A DNA stretch of 60,896 nucleotides. It comes from a virus (taxonomy: Duplodnaviria; Caudoviricetes). The notes under the pieces are model-generated. The model did not search any database and had not been told where the DNA came from. It saw only the letters and a list, made by a program, of their open reading frames with translations. The stretch lies in the IMG/VR virus record IMGVR_UViG_3300022723_000068, positions 1 through 60,896 of that record; one strand, given 5' to 3'. Positions 28,256-51,495 of this stretch are shown piece by piece. Numbering within the stretch: the stretch's first letter is position 1; each line of letters begins with the position of its first letter. The position numbers and the translations under genes are program-made.

Positions 28256-28807
28256 TTACGCGTTCTCGGCCCTCTTCTGGTGACCTCCCTTCTCCCCCTC
28301 CAGCACGCTCTTGTACCGCACTTCAAGCTTTGTCACGTTGGCGTCGAGCGCGTCCTGCAGATCTCGCCCATTCGCCTGGAGGATGTAGCCCACGTTTCTC
28401 ATGACCTGCCCCAGGTGGTGGAGCCAGGTCCTCTGCTCGTACTCCCGACCGTCTCTGATCCACTTCTTGACCATCTCGGAGACCTCTTTGGTCGCACTGA
28501 TTAGCCTTATACCCGACAGAGCTCTTGTCTGGTAGGGCAGCTTCCTAAACCCGATCTTCGCGTGGACGTCCGTGAACGTGAGCCCCTGCCAGTCGGCCAG
28601 TACGGTGAGGTAGTAGAGCACGTCCCCGCACTCATCTACCAAGAGCTCCGTATTGGAGGGCTGCTCGTCGAGGACCTCGCAGACCTCGCCGGCCTCGCCG
28701 ATGACACCGAGACCGGCGATCGAGACCCCGCGTTCGGTGTGCCCGTCTGGCTCTGACCAGATCTTGAGAACGAACTTGGGGTAGTAGCTGGGGTGGATTC
28801 GGCCCAT
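28256..28807 (-). CDS. MazG-like nucleotide pyrophosphohydrolase (tandem domains)
   Basis: GEAGEV..DECGDVLYY motif and C-terminal N..KL..RY; the second repeat is degenerate. Confidence 0.75.
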   Translation of the reverse strand: MGRIHPSYYPKFVLKIWSEPDGHTERGVSIAGLGVIGEAGEVCEVLDEQPSNTELLVDECGDVLYYLTVLADWQGLTFTDVHAKIGFRKLPYQTRALSGIRLISATKEVSEMVKKWIRDGREYEQRTWLHHLGQVMRNVGYILQANGRDLQDALDANVTKLEVRYKSVLEGEKGGHQKRAENA

Positions 28808-29127
28808 TAGTGCACCCCCGCCTGTCCTGGACCGCCGACGCCTCCCGCCGGGACGCCGACCGACCTCACGATCTTCGGCTCTTCCGCGTGCTCTACCTCG
28901 ACCAGGAGGCACACGTCGTGCTCGTTGGTCGTACGGACGTTCTCGACCAGAGCGGCGTACATGTCGTCGCCTACGGCCTCGCGGAAGTCCTCCGCCTTCA
29001 CAGTCTCTTCGTTCTGAAGAAGAACGAGTACGCCGATCAGTGCGATACGTTGAGCGGCGAACTGGTCCATCGGTAGCTGGGCGGCCAGGTTGGTCGCCTG
29101 TCTATACCTAGGCATGATTACTTGCAT
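28807..29127 (-). CDS. Hypothetical protein
   Basis: 106 aa with RBS GAGGAG; stop overlaps the next start. Confidence 0.55.
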   Translation of the reverse strand: MQVIMPRYRQATNLAAQLPMDQFAAQRIALIGVLVLLQNEETVKAEDFREAVGDDMYAALVENVRTTNEHDVCLLVEVEHAEEPKIVRSVGVPAGGVGGPGQAGVH

Positions 29128-29155: not shown

Positions 29156-30421
29156 TTACAGTTCGACGATCTCGAGACCCTTGATCTCGGAGTCGGCTAC
29201 GAAGTTGCGGGCCTGCGACTTCGTCAGCTTGAGCGCGTGCTCGCGGCGGTTGCAGAACACCGGCAGCAGCCGGCCGGCCTTACAGACGCCTGAATCGATC
29301 GCCGTCAGATAGAAAAACGCGCCCTCGTACTCTTGGGCCACGATGCAGTTCTCCCGCCACAGCTTGATCTGGTGAGCTTCGACGACCACCGAAGGGTGCG
29401 CACGGAGAAACTCACGCATCCTACCGTAGCTCAGAACGGCCGCCTTCTCCTGCTCGTCGGCCCAGACCATATCGTCGAGTTTGTCTGACAACGTGTAGCC
29501 AAGCAGATACTGCTGCTGATCTGAGCGATAGATCCAGTAGCAGTCTTCCGTAGGCCCCGAGCCGATCACCGGCCACGGCCGCACGAACCCGCTGCTCTTC
29601 GGCATGGCGGCGACATACTTGTCGGCGTTTTCTTTCGGCATACGCAGGGCCTTATCTGGGTCTCGGGTCCAGGACGAGCCCGTCCCGCCAACCGTCTTCC
29701 CAAACTGGGCCAGGTACTCATCCGCGTTGTTCTGCACCACGTACTCTCGAGCCGTTGAGTAGGGTTGATTGGGTTCTTCAACCGACTTCTCGCCGGTCTC
29801 GAAAGACGGTGGCAGATCCGGATCTTCCACAAGCTTCTTGATGAGCTCGAGCATCTCTTCGTCTACGCTCGACGCCGCGTCTCCATCGATATCGACCTTC
29901 TGGTAGTAGACCTCTTTCTTCCGCACATGTACCTTCCATGGAAGCCCGTCGCCCTTGTGTTCGCGAGCCAGCCACCAGAGCACCTGCCTCGCGTCCGCCT
30001 CGCTATACCAGAAGGGCTCGACCTGCCAGACATTGCCGAACTCGTCTTCGGTGGGGTGGTGCCAGAGACCGCCGAGCTCGACAGCCTTCTCGACTTCGAG
30101 GTCTGCGTGGTCTTTGAGCCAGAAATAGAGCTCCGCCATCTTGTCCCAGATCTCGTGCGCGATGTGGAGCTCGCCCGACTCGTTGTCGTAGAGCCCGTTG
30201 AGATCGCCGGCGTGCTCGGCCTTCTTGCGGTCCATGTAGTGTCGGAAGCCGGCCTCTGCGTAGCGAGCGCCGCCATCCTCCAGGGTCTGGAAGTTCTTCG
30301 GTGCGTACTTGAAGGCGCCGAACGTCCCCACGAACACGGGGTGTTCGAGCGCCGACATGAAGTCCCCGAGCACGAGGTCGGGTCTCGGCTTGTTGCTGTC
30401 GTATTTGATGCCGTTACTCAT
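29156..30421 (-). CDS. DUF5664 (dATP/dGTP diphosphohydrolase-like) domain fused to repeated small domains
   Basis: GIKYDSNKPRPDL, FGAFKY..N, RH and DNESGELHIAH motifs. Confidence 0.75.
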   Translation of the reverse strand: MSNGIKYDSNKPRPDLVLGDFMSALEHPVFVGTFGAFKYAPKNFQTLEDGGARYAEAGFRHYMDRKKAEHAGDLNGLYDNESGELHIAHEIWDKMAELYFWLKDHADLEVEKAVELGGLWHHPTEDEFGNVWQVEPFWYSEADARQVLWWLAREHKGDGLPWKVHVRKKEVYYQKVDIDGDAASSVDEEMLELIKKLVEDPDLPPSFETGEKSVEEPNQPYSTAREYVVQNNADEYLAQFGKTVGGTGSSWTRDPDKALRMPKENADKYVAAMPKSSGFVRPWPVIGSGPTEDCYWIYRSDQQQYLLGYTLSDKLDDMVWADEQEKAAVLSYGRMREFLRAHPSVVVEAHQIKLWRENCIVAQEYEGAFFYLTAIDSGVCKAGRLLPVFCNRREHALKLTKSQARNFVADSEIKGLEIVEL

Positions 30422-44056: not shown

Positions 44057-44442
44057 TTCACTAACTCCTCGTCTTTTAGTCCGTTCGTAAATACTAGCTC
44101 TGCTGCGTCGAACAGCTCCTTGGCGGTCGCCTTATTGAATACCATCGCCGCTACGGCTCCGTCGAACAGCAACCATTGTTCGCGGACCTGTAGCAGCATC
44201 CAGCAGTCGCCGTCTACTCTTCTTCTCTTCACGGCGAAGACTCTTTGCTGCGGTGTGTAGTGATCGATCCTAACGACCGTGTCTTGTCTCGCCGGCCACC
44301 GTCTCAGCCACTTAAGCTCTATCCAACCGTCTGCGTAGTTTATGTCGGGCGTGCCTGGTCCAACGGAGTTTTCTACGGCCACTGCGTGAAGAGGCCGAAG
44401 GGCTTTGACTACCCTCGGCCTCATTGTATCGATCTCAGACAT
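44002..44442 (-). CDS. PD-(D/E)xK nuclease / Holliday junction resolvase
   Basis: VEN..GTPD..WIELK..Q. Confidence 0.8.
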   Translation of the reverse strand: MSEIDTMRPRVVKALRPLHAVAVENSVGPGTPDINYADGWIELKWLRRWPARQDTVVRIDHYTPQQRVFAVKRRRVDGDCWMLLQVREQWLLFDGAVAAMVFNKATAKELFDAAELVFTNGLKDEELVKCVSQGLSTFTFNAAEWV

Positions 44443-45475
44443 TGTAAACCTCTATGTCGTCTCTGTATACATGGACCTCTCTCGGGTCCAGGGTAGCGGG
44501 CTCCCAGGCCCTCTCGATCGCTCTTCTAGCCATGTCACCCATGTACTCGGCGACGGGTGGAAGAACGCCTCTGGCGATCTGGTTGTATCTCTTGCCCGTC
44601 GTGCCGTAGAACCTGTAGCCTTTGGGGAATCCAGACAGGGCGGCCGCCTCACCTACCGACAAGAACCTGTCCTCCTCCGGATGGAGAGTCTTGCAGTCGC
44701 CGGTGAACGTCTGGCAGACAGCGTCCGGGTCCGCCCGACGAAGAAGAAAGCTCCCCCGTCCGCATCTAGGGTGCCCGATCAGCTCAGGGTATTCACGGTC
44801 GAAAGCTTTTCTCACGTACTCGCCCGGCGCCACCTTGTCGACGATCTTGCCCCAGTTAAGATGTGACGGGATGGCGGTCTGGCTAGGATCTGGGTCTTTG
44901 TACAGCGAGCCCAGGACGTCCCCCACCATGGCGGAAGGGCTCTTGGTCGGCTGCCAAGAGATCTCGTATTGAGAGAACACCAGAAAGAAACGCCTACGCG
45001 ATTGAGGAAGACCGTGCTCGGGTCCGTCAGTCAACACGAAGTAGGCGCAGTAGCCCATTGTCTGGGCCTCCATGACGAACTCCATCACGAGACTCTTGCC
45101 CTTGTTGTAGAGACCGCGGACGGACTCTAGCATCCACACGCCCGGCTCGAGCTTACGCAACAGATCAAAACATTCGTGCTGACAGGACAGCCTGGGGTCG
45201 GCGTCCCAGCTATTGGCTCTCCCGGACGACGCCTGCGACCAGGGGGCGCACGGCGGGTTGCAGTAGACGAGATCGATCGGGTATTGATCCTGCGTAAAAC
45301 TCTCTACCGGCCACGGCTTCTGGTGCACGATGACGCCGAGGTTCTTCTCGCTGGTCTCCACACCGAAAGGCCCATCTTCGAAGTGTACACCACACTCGAA
45401 GTGTTCTCCGATACCTAGCGTGAACCCGCCGGCGTAGACGTGAGCTCCTAACGCTCTCAACTTTTGTCTAACCAT
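44435..45475 (-). CDS. C5-cytosine DNA methyltransferase homologue with degenerate SAM-binding motifs
   Basis: Motifs IV NPPC, VI ESV, VIII PQSRRR and IX R.LS..EAA.L.GFP present; motif I reads HVYAGG and motif X reads IARGV. Confidence 0.8.
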   Translation of the reverse strand: MVRQKLRALGAHVYAGGFTLGIGEHFECGVHFEDGPFGVETSEKNLGVIVHQKPWPVESFTQDQYPIDLVYCNPPCAPWSQASSGRANSWDADPRLSCQHECFDLLRKLEPGVWMLESVRGLYNKGKSLVMEFVMEAQTMGYCAYFVLTDGPEHGLPQSRRRFFLVFSQYEISWQPTKSPSAMVGDVLGSLYKDPDPSQTAIPSHLNWGKIVDKVAPGEYVRKAFDREYPELIGHPRCGRGSFLLRRADPDAVCQTFTGDCKTLHPEEDRFLSVGEAAALSGFPKGYRFYGTTGKRYNQIARGVLPPVAEYMGDMARRAIERAWEPATLDPREVHVYRDDIEVYNV

Positions 45476-46312: not shown

Positions 46313-48273
46313 TCTCCCCAGTTCGCACCCATCTCAACGTCTACCTTGTGCGGTACGTTGCAGGGAACGGCGTCCCTCATACACTCGCCCAAGGCGAGCG
46401 CCTCTTCTTTGTTCTCGACTGTCTGGCAGAGCTCGTCGTGGACCTGCAGTTGCAGACGGAAGCCCGCCTCGTCGGCGTCCACCATGGCCTGCTTCATTTG
46501 ATCGCCCGAGCTCCCCTGGATGAGTCTGTTGAGCGCCTTGTGGACCCAGTCATAGTTGCCGAAGTCGTCCTGCGGAAAGTGACAGCGCCGTCCGAGCACG
46601 GTCACAACGAAGCCGTTCTTCGTCGCCTGTTTCTTGGCGATCTTGGCGAGCCCTCGCACGTAGGGTGCTCGCTGATCGAACTTATCTAGGAGCGCTTGCG
46701 CTTCTTCGCCCGCGACCTCCCAGATCTTTCCACCTGTGGCGCGTACACGCTCCACGGCCTCCGCCTTGTCGTCGAAGTAGAAGCGGCTTCTCTTCGTAGA
46801 TACAAGCCAGCGCGTGGGCAGATCCAGCTGAACTGCCAGCTTCTTACCGCCCATTCCGTAGCAGAGCCCTAGATAGATCGTCTTCGCAGGCTTTCGCGGG
46901 ATCTCGCAGAGATCCGCCATCATCTGATGGTTGTCGGTGGACGGGTCGTTGCGGTATCTCTCTGCGGCCTCTTTCGCCCGAGGTAGCTTGCAGATCTCGG
47001 CGAAGTGGGTCAGCCATCTAGGCTCCTGCTGCGAGTAGTCGTTGGAGGCCCAATAACCGCCCTCTTCCGGCAGATAGAGGCCCCTGATGAGACCTCCTAT
47101 CTCAGGGTCTCTTCCTGGCGAGGGCTGTTGCTGGAGATTCGGGTCCACGCAGCTTAGACGTCCGTAGGCGGCGCCCTGGGTGTCGTCTGAGCCGTCGTCT
47201 TTCGGTCGTTTCAACTGGTTGAAGGTGGCGTGTATCCTGCCGTCGACCTGGTAGCGCTCGATAGAGGCGATGAACGTCGTGCGGGCCTTGTTGATCTTGC
47301 GAGCCCTCAGCAAGAGCTCACCCACCTCTCCAGCGGACTTCATGACGGCCTCGTTGACGAGAGGGTGGCCGTTCTTGTCTGCTCCTAGGGCAATCCCCTG
47401 TCGCCTGAGAGGCTCAGCCATGGCCTCGGCCGACCAGACGTTGCCTACGCCTACCTGGAATCCCGTACGTTTGTGCACTTCATCTAGTAGGCGGGCCTCT
47501 TCGTCTAGCGTCCACATCTTCGCTCTCTCAAGGCCGTCCATGTCGATACCAACGCCTCGCCTGCGCATCTTGACCAGCACGGGCAGCACTCGAGACTCGA
47601 GATTGTATATCTGCCAGAGATCAGCATCGTCGATGCGCCGTTCTTGTTTCCTTAAGATCTCGAGCGGGAGCACGGCGTCTTCGGTGGCGTAGGGGCCGAC
47701 GTACTTGGAGTGCAGACGCCACATCTCGGATTTGGGGTCGATCCCGTAGGCGTTCGCGGCCTCGCGCAACAGATCCTCGTTCTTTCCAGGGAACCCATAC
47801 CTCTTTGATATTGCGTCGAGTGAATAGCTGTGGTACAGCTCGTTGATGAGAGGGTCGGCGATCTGGATGTCGCGGAAGAATCGAGCGTTGCGAAATACTA
47901 CGCGCTCTTCGGCGAGGTAGTCCGTGTCGTAGGACAGGTTCGCGCCGACGATGTCTCCGTCGAACACTTCGGCCTGATCCTGTAGATACTGAATCACGCG
48001 CTCAGGGTCTAGATTGCCGCCCGCCTCGTGGCGCATGGGCAGATAGAACGAGTCTCCGTCTTCGATGGCGAAGGACACGCCCGTGATATAGCCGCCCCGC
48101 CGCACCGACGGGCCGAGTTCCTTCAGATACGGATCGCGGGTCTCGATGTCCAGCCCGACGCGCTTGGCGCCAGCCCAAGACGGGAGATCATCGAGATTGG
48201 GCGGCGTCCAGTCCGATTCGGGCGCGAACATGATCTGCTGCCCCGGCGCCTTGATCGTTCTACTCCTCGCCAT
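46303..48273 (-). CDS. polA: DNA polymerase family A with 3'-5' exonuclease
   Basis: Exo DIET; GRLS..PNLQQ; motif A DYSQQEPR; motif B R..AKTIYLGLCYG; motif C VHDE. Confidence 0.95.
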   Translation of the reverse strand: MARSRTIKAPGQQIMFAPESDWTPPNLDDLPSWAGAKRVGLDIETRDPYLKELGPSVRRGGYITGVSFAIEDGDSFYLPMRHEAGGNLDPERVIQYLQDQAEVFDGDIVGANLSYDTDYLAEERVVFRNARFFRDIQIADPLINELYHSYSLDAISKRYGFPGKNEDLLREAANAYGIDPKSEMWRLHSKYVGPYATEDAVLPLEILRKQERRIDDADLWQIYNLESRVLPVLVKMRRRGVGIDMDGLERAKMWTLDEEARLLDEVHKRTGFQVGVGNVWSAEAMAEPLRRQGIALGADKNGHPLVNEAVMKSAGEVGELLLRARKINKARTTFIASIERYQVDGRIHATFNQLKRPKDDGSDDTQGAAYGRLSCVDPNLQQQPSPGRDPEIGGLIRGLYLPEEGGYWASNDYSQQEPRWLTHFAEICKLPRAKEAAERYRNDPSTDNHQMMADLCEIPRKPAKTIYLGLCYGMGGKKLAVQLDLPTRWLVSTKRSRFYFDDKAEAVERVRATGGKIWEVAGEEAQALLDKFDQRAPYVRGLAKIAKKQATKNGFVVTVLGRRCHFPQDDFGNYDWVHKALNRLIQGSSGDQMKQAMVDADEAGFRLQLQVHDELCQTVENKEEALALGECMRDAVPCNVPHKVDVEMGANWGECG

Positions 48274-48811
48274 AGTCTCCTCCAAACACGGCCCCGTTAT
48301 GACTAAAGACACGCGTCTCTGCAAACGAGCTGATGAACGCCTCTTCGACCTTTACTCCGAAAGGGTGCAGGGCCGAGCGAGATCCCCTAGTGAGTTCGTT
48401 ACGCATCTCTGTGCCCTCAACCAGACTCTCGAGTATGGTGACGAACTCGCGAGCCATTACCGCTTTCACTGTCCCCTTTTGAGCCATCTCCTCGATGGTG
48501 TCGTCGAAGTCGGTGGTCTCGACCAGCGCTTTCTCGACATCGTCAACTGTGTAGACGACGACCGTGTAGACCGAAACCGAGAACCCGTCCTTCGTGGTCA
48601 ACGTCTGCTCGACTTCCACCGACTGTCTTCTGGTCTCAAGCGTCACGACAGAGGTCGTTATCGGCCAATACCAATAGAGATGTCCAGGGCGGAGCAAGAC
48701 GATCCTGCCTCCCGGCTTGAATTTTACGCCGCCTTCTGTCGGGGTCAACAGTTCCATCTGCGGGAGCAGACTCCACAGGAAGTCGAAGATGTCGTTGAGC
48801 CAGTCGAACAC
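48260..48811 (-). CDS. SPFH / Band 7 domain protein
   Basis: GV.F..G..L.PG..W.WP, QTLTTKDG and FGVKVE motifs. Confidence 0.8.
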   Translation of the reverse strand: MFDWLNDIFDFLWSLLPQMELLTPTEGGVKFKPGGRIVLLRPGHLYWYWPITTSVVTLETRRQSVEVEQTLTTKDGFSVSVYTVVVYTVDDVEKALVETTDFDDTIEEMAQKGTVKAVMAREFVTILESLVEGTEMRNELTRGSRSALHPFGVKVEEAFISSFAETRVFSHNGAVFGGDYGEE

Positions 48812-49206
48812 TACGTCTCTCTAGAGCCTTTCTGAGCCTCGATCCCACCCCAACCACCGCCGACAAGTTCTATGTCGGCGCAGCGAGGGGCTCTGACCCA
48901 GAGAGAATAGGACACGCCCTTGAGAATGCTCTCAAGTCTGTGCGTAAATTCAGGTCGCACCATTCCGAACATGCCTGGTGCCCAGCGTTTGTAGCCGTTC
49001 CAGTCGTCTTCTTCGTAGATCTCCTCTAAGTAGCCGCCCCAGAGAATTATTCTCAAGGCGTACGCAGGGTGCGTGTGAAAGCACTCGTAGGCGTCCGCCT
49101 TAACAAACTTGTGCAGATCTATTCTCCACCCTCTGAAGTGGAACAGGTGCTTGATGTAGAACACAGGTTCTCCCGCGTGGTTCCCGATCCATCTGTCCCA
49201 GTTCAT
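48811..49206 (-). CDS. Cupin-like protein
   Basis: LH.F..D...HTHP..IL.GGY.E..HR. Confidence 0.6.
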   Translation of the reverse strand: MNWDRWIGNHAGEPVFYIKHLFHFRGWRIDLHKFVKADAYECFHTHPAYALRIILWGGYLEEIYEEDDWNGYKRWAPGMFGMVRPEFTHRLESILKGVSYSLWVRAPRCADIELVGGGWGGIEAQKGSRET

Positions 49207-49451
49207 CGTCTCTCCACTCCCATGCACCCTTCCCATGCGCGGTTCGGTGGCCAGTACTCCTCGCGTTCTTGGTCCCACTCATCCTCATTGCGGTCTCTGA
49301 GAAGATGCCCGCAGACTAGCGGACGTTCGACCCAGGTCGGAGACTCAGATTCGCCGATATCTCCGGTCGGTAGACTAGAAGGTTCGAACGCGCACTGCCA
49401 CCCAACAGTCAGAAATATTAAAAACGCGAATAGTTTGAGAACCCGACTCAT
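49203..49451 (-). CDS. Small exported or membrane protein
   Basis: N-terminal hydrophobic segment; ATGA-coupled. Confidence 0.5.
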   Translation of the reverse strand: MSRVLKLFAFLIFLTVGWQCAFEPSSLPTGDIGESESPTWVERPLVCGHLLRDRNEDEWDQEREEYWPPNRAWEGCMGVERR

Positions 49452-49672
49452 CTGTATCTCCCCGTTACATGCAGCCAGTTGAAGAGTCTACGCACAAAGT
49501 AAGACCTTACGACAGACACGGTCGTAAAGAGTATCGTGATGCTAACGTGCGCCCCAATGTCGACATAGATGCCAAAGAGCGGGAAAACAAGCAACTGAGT
49601 ACAGAGCGCCACTGCGAAACCGATGGCGATCGAGAGACAAACCTCTATGAGGCTCACTATCTTGCGTTGCAC
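49448..49672 (-). CDS. Small two-TM protein (S..E...IG...RSY.VRR.FN family)
   Basis: Recognisable motif; GTG start just after the TS stop. Confidence 0.65.
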   Translation of the reverse strand: MQRKIVSLIEVCLSIAIGFAVALCTQLLVFPLFGIYVDIGAHVSITILFTTVSVVRSYFVRRLFNWLHVTGRYR

Positions 49673-49673
49673 G

Positions 49674-50753
49674 TCAGACTTCCTGTACGTCGGCGACTTC
49701 ACTCTGCTTGGCGAGATAGCGCTCTTTGCGTCTTCGTAACCACATCTCGCATAAGGCTCGCCAGTCGTAGGCGCGGACCTCCTGAATGATCTCGAGCGCC
49801 TCGTCGTATCGATCGGCGTTGCCTGACTTGAAGACCTTGTGCGCACGTATCATAGGCAACGCCACACGGCGAAAGAACCAGGACGTATAGCCGAGCGCCT
49901 CGTCCTCCTCGTCCATGAACATCTGCAGATCAGCCTCCCAGCGATCGAGAGGTTCGCCGGCCTGGATGAGATGCGGGGCCGATAGTCTTTCTTGCGCCTC
50001 GTAGGGTGATCTCACGCGCCGCTCCTCATAGTAGGGGGCTGGCGCGTACATTTCGAGTGATCTGATCTTCTCGAGCGTATCGACGTAGGCGTGCCAGTTG
50101 TCGCTGACCTGCCAGTAGCGACCAGGCTCGACCCCAAGGGCGCCGGCCATGTAGGAGAGGAGCATCCCGAAGTGAGGCGCGTCGGCGCCGTAGGTTCCCC
50201 ACACGAGATCGTTCGATCTGTTGAACACCGTCATGTCGAGCATGCCGTAGGGTGACATCTGGAAATGCACGGTCGTGTTGCAGGGCACGTCTTTACCGGG
50301 GAGCACAAGATCGGTCGACGCGTCCCAGATCTGGAGGATCTGCCTACGGCAGTTAGGATTCTCCGCGAGGTTCTTCTGTATCCACGCGAGCTGGTCGAGC
50401 GGGACTCCTCGCGGCGACTGCCATCGTCTGCGCCATCTCTCACCGTAGGCCCCGTGCAGAGTCTCACCGTCGTCGCTGAACTCCCGCATGCGGGCGATGA
50501 AGCGGGCGGGATAGTCGACGTCGTTGCGGCCGGCCAGCATCCATAAGCCCTCAAAAAGAGTCGCGAACGGATTGATGTCGCGCTCCTCCCAGAAGCAGCA
50601 CATCTCGAGCGGCGCCTGGTAGCAGGTCGTCACCGGGTGAGGCGCGACGAGCACCCTCCCCGCTCTGGAATCCGACTCGACGCCGTTGTGCAGGATGTAG
50701 CGTACCGCCATCGGCAGCGCGTCGTGGACGTTCCTTGCGTTTATCACGTGCAT
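49674..50753 (-). CDS. Thymidylate-synthase-family dNMP (hydroxy)methylase, dCMP-type Asp
   Basis: GAYG.RWR, catalytic DVPCN, RSNDLVWGTYGAD and NWHAY motifs; start ATG 50753. Confidence 0.88.
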   Translation of the reverse strand: MHVINARNVHDALPMAVRYILHNGVESDSRAGRVLVAPHPVTTCYQAPLEMCCFWEERDINPFATLFEGLWMLAGRNDVDYPARFIARMREFSDDGETLHGAYGERWRRRWQSPRGVPLDQLAWIQKNLAENPNCRRQILQIWDASTDLVLPGKDVPCNTTVHFQMSPYGMLDMTVFNRSNDLVWGTYGADAPHFGMLLSYMAGALGVEPGRYWQVSDNWHAYVDTLEKIRSLEMYAPAPYYEERRVRSPYEAQERLSAPHLIQAGEPLDRWEADLQMFMDEEDEALGYTSWFFRRVALPMIRAHKVFKSGNADRYDEALEIIQEVRAYDWRALCEMWLRRRKERYLAKQSEVADVQEV

Positions 50754-50980
50754 ATTGGCACCTCTATCTTTACCACAATCTGGAGCCTGTCCGAGTAGCA
50801 GCCCGGGCAGACGTAAAACCATCTCTTTACGAATTCTTGCCGGTCCTCGTCCCACTCCTTGACAGGGCCGGACGTATCGAGCTGCGACGTATGCCACTCG
50901 CACTCACAGCACTCACAGACGACGTAGTCGTTAGCTGTTGGCACCAATGAACTCCTCTCCATGTCTGCACGATCCCACAC
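50744..50980 (-). CDS. Small zinc-finger protein
   Basis: CECC..CPGC. Confidence 0.5.
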   Translation of the reverse strand: MWDRADMERSSLVPTANDYVVCECCECEWHTSQLDTSGPVKEWDEDRQEFVKRWFYVCPGCYSDRLQIVVKIEVPICT

Positions 50981-51006: not shown

Positions 51007-51495
51007 TTACAATCCTACTGCATGAACAGACCTTTGTAGACCGGCTATGAACTCTCCCCACCACTGAGTCGCCTGCACCAGGTTCTCAGGTCGGTTGTAC
51101 CAGTGATTTCGACCAGAGGTGTGGGGGACGCAGACGAAACGGTAGCCGTGGACCCTGTTGACGTTGAGCTCAAAGAACGGTAGCGACTTGTTGCAGTATC
51201 CGAAGGCTCGAGAGACGTTTCGCCCGACGAAGATTATCGTGCGTTCTCTGGCCATCCTTTCGACGACTTGCGCGGCGATCTTCGCCTTTGCGACTGGAAA
51301 CGAGTCTCCGTTCTGAATGGCTCCAGGGAACTTCTGCAATAGGTTTACACGTTCAAACGTCCGTTCGTACTCCTCCAAGGTCAGTCCAGTCATTTGTTGT
51401 AGTCTATGGCCCGCAGAGTTTCGTATTCGAGCACAGAGGGGGCGCATGGGGTCCGTGTCCGGCCCTGGCGCTTGACCTACGAGAAGCGGCTTCAC
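51007..51495 (-). CDS. Uracil-DNA glycosylase superfamily protein
   Basis: LLVGQAPG motif A and PHTSGRN motif B. Confidence 0.75.
   Translation of the reverse strand: MKPLLVGQAPGPDTDPMRPLCARIRNSAGHRLQQMTGLTLEEYERTFERVNLLQKFPGAIQNGDSFPVAKAKIAAQVVERMARERTIIFVGRNVSRAFGYCNKSLPFFELNVNRVHGYRFVCVPHTSGRNHWYNRPENLVQATQWWGEFIAGLQRSVHAVGL

What the first reader, a model, noticed from the sequence alone, without database searches (positions are those of the whole stretch)
50161..50290. Asn-to-Asp specificity switch in the thymidylate-synthase homologue
The motif reads RSNDLVWGTYGAD (GAC codon at 50183-50181). dUMP-using enzymes have Asn here (E. coli ThyA N177; YuA-type hydroxymethylases read ..YGAN as I recall), whereas T4 dCMP hydroxymethylase has Asp. 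This suggests a lineage known for thymidine modification has switched to cytosine by a point change.
Basis: partly seen in the sequence, partly recalled or inferred. Interest (0 to 1): 0.8.

Follow-up and report, generated by a model that had tools for sequence, protein, structure and literature searches.

The report
Cytosine-type hydroxymethylase in an M6-like phage
A phage enzyme from the group that normally makes hydroxymethyl-uracil for DNA carries the one residue change, and the genome context, that point to cytosine as its substrate; this is a sensible, testable prediction but not a new principle.

Summary
Window 49674-50753 (-) encodes a 359-aa thymidylate-synthase homologue. It is 47% identical over its full length to the phage M6 dUMP hydroxymethylase. 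Codon 50183-50181 is GAC (Asp191) where M6 has Asn.

Profile alignments place Asp191 opposite E. coli ThyA Asn177 and MilA Asp186, the cytosine-reading residue. The other published diagnostic positions fit a deoxycytidylate hydroxymethylase: Asp155 at L143, Asp182 at D169, and Ser180/Arg136 for deoxyribose.

Asp is a conserved minority state: 11 of 120 close homologues and 9 of 150 cluster representatives.

Genome context agrees. In 28 virus records, the 5-hmdU DNA kinase occurs in 25 of 25 Asn-type and 0 of 3 Asp-type records. A MazZ-like dNTP diphosphohydrolase domain shows the reverse pattern, 0 of 25 versus 3 of 3. The window lacks the whole M6 thymidine-hypermodification cassette.

"A point change" is too simple, because second-shell residues and gene content changed as well. 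The direction of the switch is unresolved. The same virus family already includes Xp12, whose DNA carries 5-methylcytosine, with a different Asp-type enzyme.

The Asn/Asp rule is published, including for phage metagenomes. Best reading: a dCMP hydroxymethylase, a new member of a known kind. No biochemistry exists.

The parts
49674..50753 (-). Gene for the 359-aa thymidylate-synthase homologue (P0001). It has a TS core plus a C-terminal helical domain as in MilA.
   Evidence: ORF and translation. Pfam PF00303 3.4e-20. phrog_5131 1.2e-113. 47% identity to M6 gp58. AlphaFold2 model with pLDDT 96.3. Best Foldseek matches are MilA chains, TM 0.61-0.82 over 344-350 columns.
50181..50183 (-). GAC codon for Asp191, the residue at the E. 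coli ThyA Asn177 / MilA Asp186 position.
   Evidence: Sequence. Alignments. It is the only column that separates the 11 Asp-type from the 108 Asn-type sequences without overlap.
50280..50291 (-). Asp155-Val-Pro-Cys158. Cys158 is the catalytic nucleophile (E. coli Cys146). Asp155 is at the E. coli Leu143 position, which is acidic in hydroxymethylases.
   Evidence: Sequence. D155 and C158 are invariant in A1 and A2. Aligned to MilA D152/C155. The 143 rule is quoted from PMC13326640 section 24.
50208..50219 (-). Arg179-Ser180-Asn181-Asp182 (E. coli R166-S167-C168-D169). Ser180 marks deoxyribose-type enzymes. Asp182 excludes the D169N 5-hydroxy-dCMP synthase signature.
   Evidence: Sequence. Invariant in A1 and A2. 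MilA Ala176 aligns with Ser180. Rules taken from PMC5175136 and PMC13326640 section 28.
29156..30421 (-). 421-aa ORF whose N-terminal ~100 residues are a dGTP_diPhyd_N (MazZ-like) dNTP diphosphohydrolase domain (30113-30412). Inferred candidate dCTP to dCMP enzyme. The remaining ~320 aa are unknown.
   Evidence: Pfam PF18909 1.1e-14. Genome scan 4.0e-17. The family is present in 3 of 3 Asp-type and 0 of 25 Asn-type virus records. 34-36% identical to the domain proteins next to the Asp-type gene in L013 and L067. The Atlas gave nothing usable for the C-terminal part.
28256..28912 (-). 218-aa MazG / PRA-PH type nucleotide pyrophosphohydrolase. Second candidate for hydrolysis of the canonical dNTP.
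   Evidence: Pfam PF03819 5.4e-08 and PF01503 1.2e-04. Genome scan. No M6 counterpart by tblastn. PF01503 co-occurs with TS domains in cytosine-modified contigs according to PMC8670742.
45468..45914 (-). dCMP deaminase, homologue of M6 gp65. Inferred supplier of dUMP for host thymidylate synthesis, or a deaminase of the modified dCMP.
   Evidence: Pfam PF00383 5.4e-22 and PF14437 1.2e-12. 51% identity to M6 gp65. Present in 13 of 25 Asn-type records and only the window among 3 Asp-type records.
44435..45475 (-). Divergent Dcm-type C5-cytosine DNA methyltransferase homologue. Its link to the pathway is unexplained.
   Evidence: Pfam PF00145 8.5e-24. Translation shows PCA and ESV where the canonical motifs, as I recall them, read PCQ and ENV. 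Found in 2 of 3 Asp-type and 0 of 25 Asn-type records.

Best explanation
The gene encodes a folate-dependent deoxycytidylate 5-hydroxymethylase. It works like T4 gp42 but has the M6/MilA architecture. Cys158 attacks C6 of dCMP, and the one-carbon unit of 5,10-methylene-tetrahydrofolate is added at C5. Water then attacks the exocyclic methylene, which Asp155 at the Leu143 position permits, giving 5-hydroxymethyl-dCMP. Asp191 reads N3 and the 4-amino group of cytosine in the way Asn reads uracil in the M6 enzyme. Ser180 and Arg136 select the deoxyribose form. A MazZ/MazG-like pyrophosphohydrolase probably converts dCTP to dCMP, which both feeds the enzyme and depletes dCTP. Host or unrecognised phage kinases would then make the triphosphate, and the phage A-family polymerase would build 5-hydroxymethylcytosine into phage DNA. 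Shown here: the sequence, the residue equivalences, the fold, the conservation of Asp, and the gene-content partition. Inferred: the substrate, the product, the role of the pyrophosphohydrolase, and incorporation into DNA.
For: (1) Family and fold: PF00303, phrog_5131 1e-113, 47% identity to M6 gp58, a confident model and MilA as the best structural match. (2) Residue mapping: Asp191 aligns with E. coli Asn177 and with MilA Asp186. Ser180 aligns with MilA Ala176, Arg136 with MilA Lys133 and Asp155 with MilA Asp152. The profile of Asp-type sequences hits MilA at 6e-25, against 1.7e-16 for the best classical TS. (3) Published rules. N177D gives dCMP preference, an acidic residue at 143 goes with hydroxymethyl products, and D169N marks 5-hydroxy-dCMP synthases (PMC13326640 sections 24 and 28). 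Ser and Arg go with deoxyribose, and Asp186 with cytosine (PMC5175136 passages). Position 177 is the top residue separating cytosine-modified from unmodified phage contigs (PMC8670742 section 11). (4) Asp is conserved in two well-supported clades of 8 and 5 rows, while all catalytic residues are kept. (5) Context. The M6 cassette gp49-57 and HD gp59 are absent from the window. HMUDK_hel is in 0 of 3 Asp-type and 25 of 25 Asn-type records. PF18909 is in 3 of 3 versus 0 of 25, and lies directly downstream of the Asp-type gene in the two other Asp-type records. One Asp-type record has ThyX next to the gene. No Asp-type record has DHFR, whereas the methylating phage Xp12 does. (6) TS plus PRA-PH pyrophosphohydrolase plus dCMP/MafB19 deaminase domains is the co-occurrence pattern reported for cytosine-modified contigs (PMC8670742 passage). 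The window has all three.
Against: There is no enzyme assay and no analysis of virion DNA. The model's coordinates could not be read, so the position of Asp191 rests on sequence and profile alignments that need a one-residue insertion (TYGA versus LPF). The hhalign alignment to T4 gp42 ends ungapped at this point, placing Ala190 opposite T4 Asp179. No dNMP kinase, glycosyltransferase, carbamoyltransferase or TET was recognised, so the steps after 5hm-dCMP are unsupported. A Dcm-type methyltransferase would have no substrate if all cytosine were replaced. The phage keeps a dCMP deaminase and has no thymidylate synthase of its own. That also fits an Xp12-like scheme with a methyl product. The 143 rule is a correlation: the Xp12 enzyme has Asn there, not a bulky hydrophobic residue. 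The context statistics rest on only three Asp-type genomes, and the other two belong to the second Asp clade, not the window's.
Confidence: 0.65

Rival explanations
1. The enzyme is a dCMP methyltransferase that makes 5-methyl-dCMP, as in Xanthomonas phage Xp12. 5-methylcytosine would replace cytosine. The phage dCMP deaminase would then make dTMP by deaminating 5-methyl-dCMP, and the Dcm-type enzyme would methylate any leftover cytosines.
For: Xp12 is in the same virus family (PMC11946847 Table 1). Its TS homologue has Asp at the 177 position and sits next to a dCMP deaminase. That homologue is closer to the M6-like profile than E. coli ThyA is (3e-22 versus 3.8e-13). The window has a dCMP deaminase, no other ThyA and no ThyX. 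It has a C5 DNA methyltransferase homologue. That Xp12-infected cells make thymidylate by deamination of the methylated nucleotide is recalled; only the reference titles were seen.
Against: Asp155 at the 143 position is invariant in the whole M6-like family, both Asn and Asp forms, as in T4 gp42 and MilA. The Xp12 enzyme is 289 aa without the MilA-type C-terminal domain and has Asn at that position. Xp12 carries a DHFR beside the gene, while none of the three Asp-type records has one. Xp12 has neither PF18909 nor Dcm.
Confidence: 0.12
2. The enzyme is still a dUMP hydroxymethylase. Asp191 is tolerated, and the phage makes unmodified 5-hydroxymethyluracil DNA without further hypermodification.
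For: Full-length homology and synteny with the M6 replication module. A dCMP deaminase that could supply dUMP is kept. Every catalytic residue other than 191 is shared with the Asn-type enzymes.
Against: Asn is present in 108 of 108 non-Asp sequences of A2, so the position is under strong constraint. Asp is itself conserved across clades that are 45-66% identical. Published mutagenesis links this residue to pyrimidine choice (cited in PMC8670742 section 11). The 5-hmdU DNA kinase accompanies 25 of 25 Asn-type enzymes but is missing from all 3 Asp-type records. One Asp-type phage carries ThyX next to the gene, which makes little sense if thymine is being replaced.
Confidence: 0.08
3. The enzyme acts on cytosine nucleotides but gives another outcome. 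Examples are CMP hydroxymethylation as in MilA, or a C5 product that unrecognised phage genes (the cupin, the Dcm-like protein, or the unknown part of the 421-aa protein) convert into a new base.
For: MilA is the closest solved structure and the best PDB sequence match of the Asp-type profile. Several window ORFs near the gene have no assigned function. The Dcm-like gene is found only in Asp-type records.
Against: Ser180 and Arg136 are the residues of deoxyribose-specific enzymes, whereas MilA has Ala and Lys. Asp182 argues against the flavin-type 5-hydroxylase. The gene lies in a phage DNA-replication module. Nothing links the unknown ORFs to DNA modification.
Confidence: 0.1

Closest known systems
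Pseudomonas phage M6 gp58 (YuA/M6-type dUMP hydroxymethylase, Yuavirus)
   Same: 47% identity over the full length, including the C-terminal helical domain. Same PHROG. Same place in a syntenic replication module between the Dda helicase and the DNA polymerase. All catalytic residues other than 191 are shared.
   Different: M6 has Asn where the window has Asp191. M6 has R51, F64, H65 and S196; the window has M, A, T and G. M6 sits beside the 5-hmdU DNA kinase, ADDT, PLP and radical-SAM genes and an HD hydrolase. All of these are missing from the window.
Bacteriophage T4 gp42, dCMP hydroxymethylase
   Same: Predicted reaction and diagnostic residues: Asp at 177, an acidic residue at 143, RSND, and catalytic Cys. 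A phage pre-replicative pathway with a dCTP-hydrolysing enzyme and a dCMP deaminase; the T4 enzymes gp56 and Cd are recalled, not checked here.
   Different: T4 gp42 is 246 aa without the C-terminal helical domain. The profile match is weak (hhalign probability 91.9, 93 columns). T4 has glucosyltransferases and its own Td and dNMP kinase; none was recognised in the window.
MilA, CMP 5-hydroxymethylase of mildiomycin biosynthesis (PDB 5jnh, 5b6d)
   Same: Best structural match (TM 0.61-0.82 over 344-350 columns) and best PDB sequence match of the Asp-type profile (6e-25). Same extra C-terminal helical domain (PMC5175136). Asp at both the 177 and 143 positions.
   Different: MilA has Ala176 and Lys133, which favour ribose; the window has Ser180 and Arg136. 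MilA is a bacterial secondary-metabolism enzyme, not a phage replication gene. Identity is about 20%.
Xanthomonas phage Xp12 thymidylate-synthase homologue (presumed dCMP methyltransferase; Bosavirus, Mesyanzhinovviridae)
   Same: Same virus family as M6. Asp at the 177 position. Related to the M6-like profile (hhalign 99.5%). A dCMP deaminase is present in the genome.
   Different: 289 aa with no MilA-type tail. No one-residue insertion before the Asp. Asn at the 143 position. DHFR and deaminase are adjacent. The product in DNA is 5-methylcytosine (reference title seen). The window shares fewer and weaker gene matches with Xp12 than with M6.
RB69 gp48 / DLP3 gp80 5-hydroxy-dCMP synthases
   Same: TS homologues with Asp at 177 and an acidic residue at 143 that act on dCMP (PMC13326640 section 24).
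   Different: Their diagnostic D169N change (section 28) is not present. The window has Asp182, which is invariant in the family.

Membership tests
Folate-dependent thymidylate synthase superfamily (Pfam PF00303) | Profile match above the curated cut-off | tested here: met
   72.7 bits against a cut-off of 24.3, E 3.4e-20. Genome scan 6.3e-22.
Folate-dependent thymidylate synthase superfamily (Pfam PF00303) | Catalytic Cys, phosphate-binding Args, Glu58, and His207/Tyr209 equivalents | tested here: met
   C158, R30, R136/R137, R179, E68, H221 and Y223 are present in the window protein and in every Asp-type row listed. C158, R30, R136/R137, R179, H221 and Y223 are invariant across the 119-row alignment; E68 is nearly invariant there. 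Aligned to E. coli ThyA.
Folate-dependent thymidylate synthase superfamily (Pfam PF00303) | TS fold | tested here: met
   Model pLDDT 96.3. 396 PDB chains at E <= 0.001; all those listed are TS or MilA entries.
dCMP 5-hydroxymethylase (T4 gp42 / MilA functional type) | Asp at the E. coli Asn177 position | tested here: met
   Asp191 aligns with N177 and with MilA Asp186. The alignment to T4 itself is uninformative at this spot.
dCMP 5-hydroxymethylase (T4 gp42 / MilA functional type) | Acidic residue at the E. coli Leu143 position | tested here: met
   Asp155, three residues before Cys158. Rule from PMC13326640 section 24.
dCMP 5-hydroxymethylase (T4 gp42 / MilA functional type) | Ser and Arg at the MilA Ala176/Lys133 positions (deoxyribose preference) | tested here: met
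   Ser180 and Arg136. Rule from PMC5175136.
dCMP 5-hydroxymethylase (T4 gp42 / MilA functional type) | Conversion of dCMP plus methylene-THF to 5hm-dCMP; 5hmC in virion DNA | not testable with these tools
   Uncultured virus record.
M6/YuA-type dUMP hydroxymethylase with 5-hmdU hypermodification pathway | Full-length homology to M6 gp58 (phrog_5131) | tested here: met
   1.2e-113. 47% identity over 356 columns.
M6/YuA-type dUMP hydroxymethylase with 5-hmdU hypermodification pathway | Asn at the pyrimidine-reading position | tested here: not met
   Asp191. Asn is found in 109 of 120 homologues.
M6/YuA-type dUMP hydroxymethylase with 5-hmdU hypermodification pathway | Co-occurrence with the 5-hmdU DNA kinase (stated in PMC5889632) | tested here: not met
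   PF18723 is absent from the window record, which is 96% complete. It is present in 25 of 25 Asn-type records.
5-hydroxy-dCMP synthase (RB69 gp48 type) | Asn at the E. coli Asp169 position | tested here: not met
   Asp182 in RSND. Rule.
Xp12-type dCMP methyltransferase | Classical-length TS homologue with Asp177, paired with DHFR and dCMP deaminase | tested here: not met
   Asp is present, but the protein has a MilA-type tail. No DHFR is in the record. The deaminase is 3.8 kb away, beyond the polymerase gene.

The most novel reading that the evidence does not exclude
Asp-type members of the M6-like hydroxymethylase family, together with a MazZ-like dNTP diphosphohydrolase, form a compact two-gene cytosine-replacement module. 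This module has displaced the 5-hmdU kinase pathway in some Mesyanzhinovviridae-like siphoviruses. In the window phage its product is processed further by the Dcm-like protein, the deaminase or an unknown ORF into a cytosine derivative not yet described.
Probability: 0.12. Interest if true: 0.75.

Novelty: new member of a known kind. Interest (0 to 1): 0.45.

Why it matters
Base replacement decides which restriction, CRISPR and other nuclease defences a phage escapes. It also affects how phage DNA behaves in sequencing and cloning.

This case shows, inside one enzyme family with otherwise syntenic genomes, both specificities side by side. Their partner genes separate cleanly: the 5-hmdU DNA kinase goes with Asn, and a MazZ-like pyrophosphohydrolase goes with Asp. 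That gives a simple annotation rule. These genes are currently labelled "thymidylate synthase" or "dUMP hydroxymethyltransferase".

It also offers a natural pair of enzymes for studying how pyrimidine choice is rewired, and a prediction that gene synthesis and an established E. coli LC-MS assay could test. It does not change the known principle that Asn or Asp at this position sets pyrimidine specificity.

Tried and rejected
5-hydroxy-dCMP synthase: rejected, because the D169N signature is absent.

CMP (ribose) specificity as in MilA: judged unlikely from Ser180 and Arg136.

TET/JBP route to 5hmC: PF12851 was not found in four records, but the control genomes did not ring either, so this is weak.

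Carbamoyltransferase and GT1/GT2 glycosyltransferases: not found in the three Asp-type records. Other glycosyltransferase families were not searched.

T4 gp42 profile alignment: it ends ungapped at the key loop, so it could not be used for the residue equivalence.

The search for related loci with the single protein returned only one locus. The alignment query was needed.

The context of that clade therefore rests on the window alone. The contigs of P0002, P0005 and P0015 come from a source that only look-up of encoding contigs could fetch.

Atlas search on residues 105-421 of the 421-aa protein gave no usable hit.

In one search I first scanned the wrong ORF downstream of the L067 gene (11048-11662, HTH hits). 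The PF18909 match lies at L067 10981-11253.

Tree questions. Three free trees separate two Asp clades. The AU test does not reject one clade, and the constrained tree scored 74.9 log-likelihood units better than the quick free search. I therefore make no claim about the number of origins or the direction of the switch. Rows used were all 120 listed homologues plus M6 gp58. Searches added the two locus-derived Asp proteins, and alone also added T4 gp42 and E. coli ThyA as outgroups. P0117, a 544-aa fusion, was left out of A2 only.

Supplementary files of the papers were not opened. The supplements of PMC8670742 and PMC13326640 may list enzymes of this clade.
Full report
OBSERVATION. The minus strand of the window carries an ORF at 49674-50753 with ATG at 50753. 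It encodes 359 residues (P0001). The window is an entire virus record of 60,896 bp, estimated 96% complete, and holds a single thymidylate-synthase homologue.

WHAT THE GENE IS. The protein matches Pfam Thymidylat_synt (3.4e-20). It matches PHROG 5131 over its whole length (1.2e-113). It stays far below the cut-offs of all NCBIfam thymidylate-synthase equivalogs. In the phage collection the best 40 records listed are Pseudomonas phages of the M6/YuA type at 47-48% identity. They are annotated as thymidylate synthase or deoxyuridylate hydroxymethyltransferase.

BLASTP to M6 gp58 gives 47% identity over 356 columns, with GADAPHF opposite GANAVHF. An AlphaFold2 model built on 119 homologues is confident (pLDDT 96.3, pTM 0.94). 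Its best matches among solved structures are the chains of MilA, a CMP 5-hydroxymethylase, with TM 0.61-0.82 over 344-350 columns. Classical thymidylate synthases cover only about 230-290 columns. So the M6-like family shares the extra C-terminal helical domain that the MilA paper describes (PMC5175136 passages).

WHICH RESIDUE IS ASP191. HMMER alignments to five solved thymidylate synthases and an hhalign profile alignment to E. coli ThyA (probability 97.9) agree. Both place Asp191 opposite Asn177, with a one-residue insertion just before it (G-T-Y-G-A-D versus G-L-P-F-N). On either side the alignment is ungapped: RSND-to-G upstream, and 20 residues to the next conserved Gly downstream.

A profile of the 11 Asp-type sequences finds MilA as its best PDB hit (6e-25, against 1.7e-16 for the best TS). 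It aligns Asp191 with MilA Asp186, Ser180 with Ala176, Arg136 with Lys133, and Asp155 with Asp152. The MilA paper states that Asp186 is conserved in enzymes that use cytosine. It also states that Ala176 and Lys133 give ribose preference, while deoxyribose enzymes have Ser and Arg.

The profile alignment to T4 gp42 is short. It ends without a gap at this loop, so it is uninformative there. I could not read model coordinates, so the geometry of Asp191 was not measured.

PUBLISHED RULES APPLIED. PMC13326640 (sections 24 and 28 read) summarises three rules. Asp at position 177 gives dCMP preference. A bulky hydrophobic residue at 143 goes with methyl products and Asp or Glu with hydroxymethyl products. 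D169N marks flavin-dependent 5-hydroxy-dCMP synthases. PMC8670742 (section 11 read) shows that position 177 is the top residue separating thymidylate-synthase domains of cytosine-modified and unmodified phage contigs. The window enzyme has Asp191, Asp155 and Asp182. This is the signature of a dCMP hydroxymethylase, with Ser180 and Arg136 pointing to the deoxy form.

HOW COMMON AND HOW CONSERVED.
- Of 1095 database proteins at E <= 1e-20, the best 120 were listed. Of those, 109 have Asn and 11 have Asp at this column.
- Of 81 IMG/VR loci, 79 have Asn and 2 have Asp.
- Of 80 metagenome loci, 76 have Asn and 4 have Asp.
- Of the best 150 cluster representatives found with the Asp-type profile, 139 have Asn, 9 have Asp, and 2 are odd rows that also lack the Cys.

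Column 191 is the only one that separates the two groups without overlap. In the window's subclade, four residues that are almost invariant in Asn-type enzymes also differ. These are R51 (107 of 108), F64 (105 of 108), H65 (108 of 108) and S196 (106 of 108). In the second Asp group, His194 is replaced instead. All catalytic residues are retained.

Three free trees show two supported Asp clades: 8 rows with support 95-98, and 3-5 rows with support 91-94. They are separated by very short, weakly supported backbone branches. An AU test does not reject a single Asp clade (p 0.908), and the constrained tree scored better than the quick free search. Rooting with T4 gp42 and E. coli ThyA, both on very long branches, puts the root next to the second Asp group with weak support. 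I therefore cannot say how often, or in which direction, the change happened. No record in the phage collection exceeds 48% identity to either Asp group among the rows listed.

GENOME CONTEXT. tblastn in both directions shows that the window is syntenic with M6 in both the structural and the replication modules. The M6 homologues found are helicase gp41, gp42-45, gp48, gp58, polymerase gp62, deaminase gp65, gp66-68 and gp71, at 24-58% identity. The ribonucleotide reductase gp46, the whole block gp49-57 and the HD hydrolase gp59 have no counterpart.

Pfam identifies that block as containing the 5-hmdU DNA kinase (gp54 P-loop part, gp55 helical domain), the amino-acid:DNA transferase gp51 and Nmad5 gp56. 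PMC5889632 notes that this kinase co-associates with the dUMP hydroxymethyltransferase (passage).

Among loci of at least 10 kb, a gp55 homologue is present in 101 of 106 Asn-type and 0 of 4 Asp-type loci. Some loci are duplicates between the two collections, and L101 is nearly the same phage as L013.

I then scanned 28 whole virus records: the three Asp-type ones, and the 25 of 79 Asn-type IMG/VR loci whose contigs were at least 53 kb.
- HMUDK_hel: 0 of 3 Asp-type versus 25 of 25 Asn-type.
- dGTP_diPhyd_N, a MazZ-like dNTP diphosphohydrolase domain: 3 of 3 versus 0 of 25.
- C5 DNA methylase: 2 of 3 versus 0 of 25.
- ThyX: 1 of 3 versus 0 of 25.
- dCMP deaminase: 1 of 3 (the window only) versus 13 of 25.

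In the other two Asp-type records the diphosphohydrolase gene lies directly downstream of the Asp-type gene. In one of them ThyX lies directly upstream. In the window the domain is the N-terminus of a 421-aa ORF at 29156-30421, next to a MazG/PRA-PH protein at 28256-28912. The three domain sequences are 34-36% identical.

The MetaGPA study reports that thymidylate-synthase domains co-occur with PRA-PH pyrophosphohydrolase, dCMP-deaminase and MafB19-deaminase domains, often specifically in cytosine-modified contigs (passage). The window has all three.

No DHFR, TET/JBP, carbamoyltransferase, or GT1/GT2 glycosyltransferase was found in the Asp-type records. In the window, 33 ORFs were scanned with Pfam and 11 with PHROGs. 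Several remain without any match.

THE XP12 COMPLICATION. A paper on phage Lydia lists Xanthomonas phage Xp12 as a member of the same family as M6, Mesyanzhinovviridae (PMC11946847 Table 1). Xp12 DNA has 5-methylcytosine in place of cytosine; I saw only the title of the cited paper.

Xp12's 289-aa thymidylate-synthase homologue reads RSSDLFVGLPYD, with Asp at the 177 position and Asn at the 143 position. It has no MilA-type tail. It lies next to a dCMP deaminase and a DHFR. It is closer to the M6-like profile than E. coli ThyA is (3e-22). The Lydia paper argues that the family holds two separate lineages of this enzyme (passage).

So cytosine modification is already known in this virus family, through a different enzyme lineage and with a methyl product. 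The window shares fewer and weaker matches with Xp12 than with M6.

MECHANISM PROPOSED. A MazZ/MazG-like enzyme would convert dCTP to dCMP. The Asp191 enzyme, with methylene-THF and water, would convert dCMP to 5hm-dCMP. Kinases would then give the triphosphate, which would be incorporated into DNA.

Shown here: gene, fold, residue equivalences, conservation, and gene-content partition. Inferred: substrate, product, the pyrophosphohydrolase's substrate, the kinases, and incorporation. I put about 0.85 on cytosine rather than uracil as the base, and 0.65 on the full statement with a hydroxymethyl product.

The main rival is an Xp12-like methyl product (0.12). The retained deaminase, the absence of any phage thymidylate synthase and the Dcm-like gene favour it. 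The invariant Asp155, the MilA-type architecture and the missing DHFR count against it.

NOVELTY AND VERDICT. The Asn/Asp rule dates from mutagenesis work cited and has already been applied to metagenomic phage enzymes. Calling this protein a dCMP hydroxymethylase is therefore an application of known knowledge.

Two points appear to be unreported in the papers I searched (searches; passages). First, the Asp form occurs inside the M6/YuA-type family that is otherwise tied to 5-hmdU. Second, the two forms partition cleanly with different partner genes. The supplements of those papers were not available and may already list such enzymes.

I rate it a new member of a known kind, of moderate interest and directly testable.

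LIMITS. There are only three Asp-type genomes. The window is the sole genome of its own Asp clade.

Noticed in passing
window 44435-45475 (-): Dcm-type C5 DNA methyltransferase homologue with unusual motifs (PCA and ESV where the canonical motifs, as I recall them, read PCQ and ENV, and a shortened glycine loop). It is inserted between the deaminase and the gp66 homologue relative to M6. The family is found in 2 of 3 Asp-type and 0 of 25 Asn-type virus records. Its role is unexplained if cytosine is fully replaced.
   Followed up: partly
window 48260-49672 (-): Between the hydroxymethylase gene and the DNA polymerase, M6 has an HD hydrolase plus gp60-61. The window instead has a 74-aa DUF7220 membrane protein, a 155-aa small cupin (phrog_4786, 'cysteine dioxygenase') and an SPFH/Band-7 protein. 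The SPFH protein also occurs in G001.
   Followed up: partly
window 50744-50980 (-): 78-aa Cys-rich ORF with CxxC-type pairs. Its stop codon overlaps the start of the hydroxymethylase gene, which suggests translational coupling. No Pfam match.
   Followed up: no
window 29156-30421 (-): Only the first ~100 residues of this 421-aa protein match the MazZ-like domain. The remaining ~320 residues have no Pfam, PHROG or usable Atlas match.
   Followed up: partly
L067 9186-9827 and 14179-14673: In a complete Asp-type phage record (direct terminal repeats), ThyX lies immediately upstream of the Asp-type gene, and a dCTP-deaminase/dUTPase-like protein lies 3 kb downstream. This layout is reminiscent of T4, which has both Td and gp42.
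   Followed up: partly
L180 45326-46195 (Xp12): The Xp12 thymidylate-synthase homologue, presumed to make 5-methyl-dCMP, has Asn rather than a bulky hydrophobic residue at the E. coli Leu143 position. The published 143 rule for methyl versus hydroxymethyl products may therefore not be strict.
   Followed up: partly
P0117; also P0140, P0157, P0191, P0221: P0117 is an Nmad5 domain fused to an Asn-type enzyme (544 aa). Four representatives of 546-661 aa match the profile in two stretches, which may mean insertions such as inteins or homing elements. These were not examined.
   Followed up: no
L111 and L112: One 197,896-bp metagenome contig carries two matches to the enzyme about 130 kb apart, with identical scores. 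This may be a concatemer or an assembly artefact of a ~60-kb phage.
   Followed up: no
window 51007-51495 (-): Homologue of M6 gp48 (46% identity) with no Pfam match. Its N-terminal GQAPG motif reminded me of uracil-DNA glycosylases (recalled, not tested).
   Followed up: no
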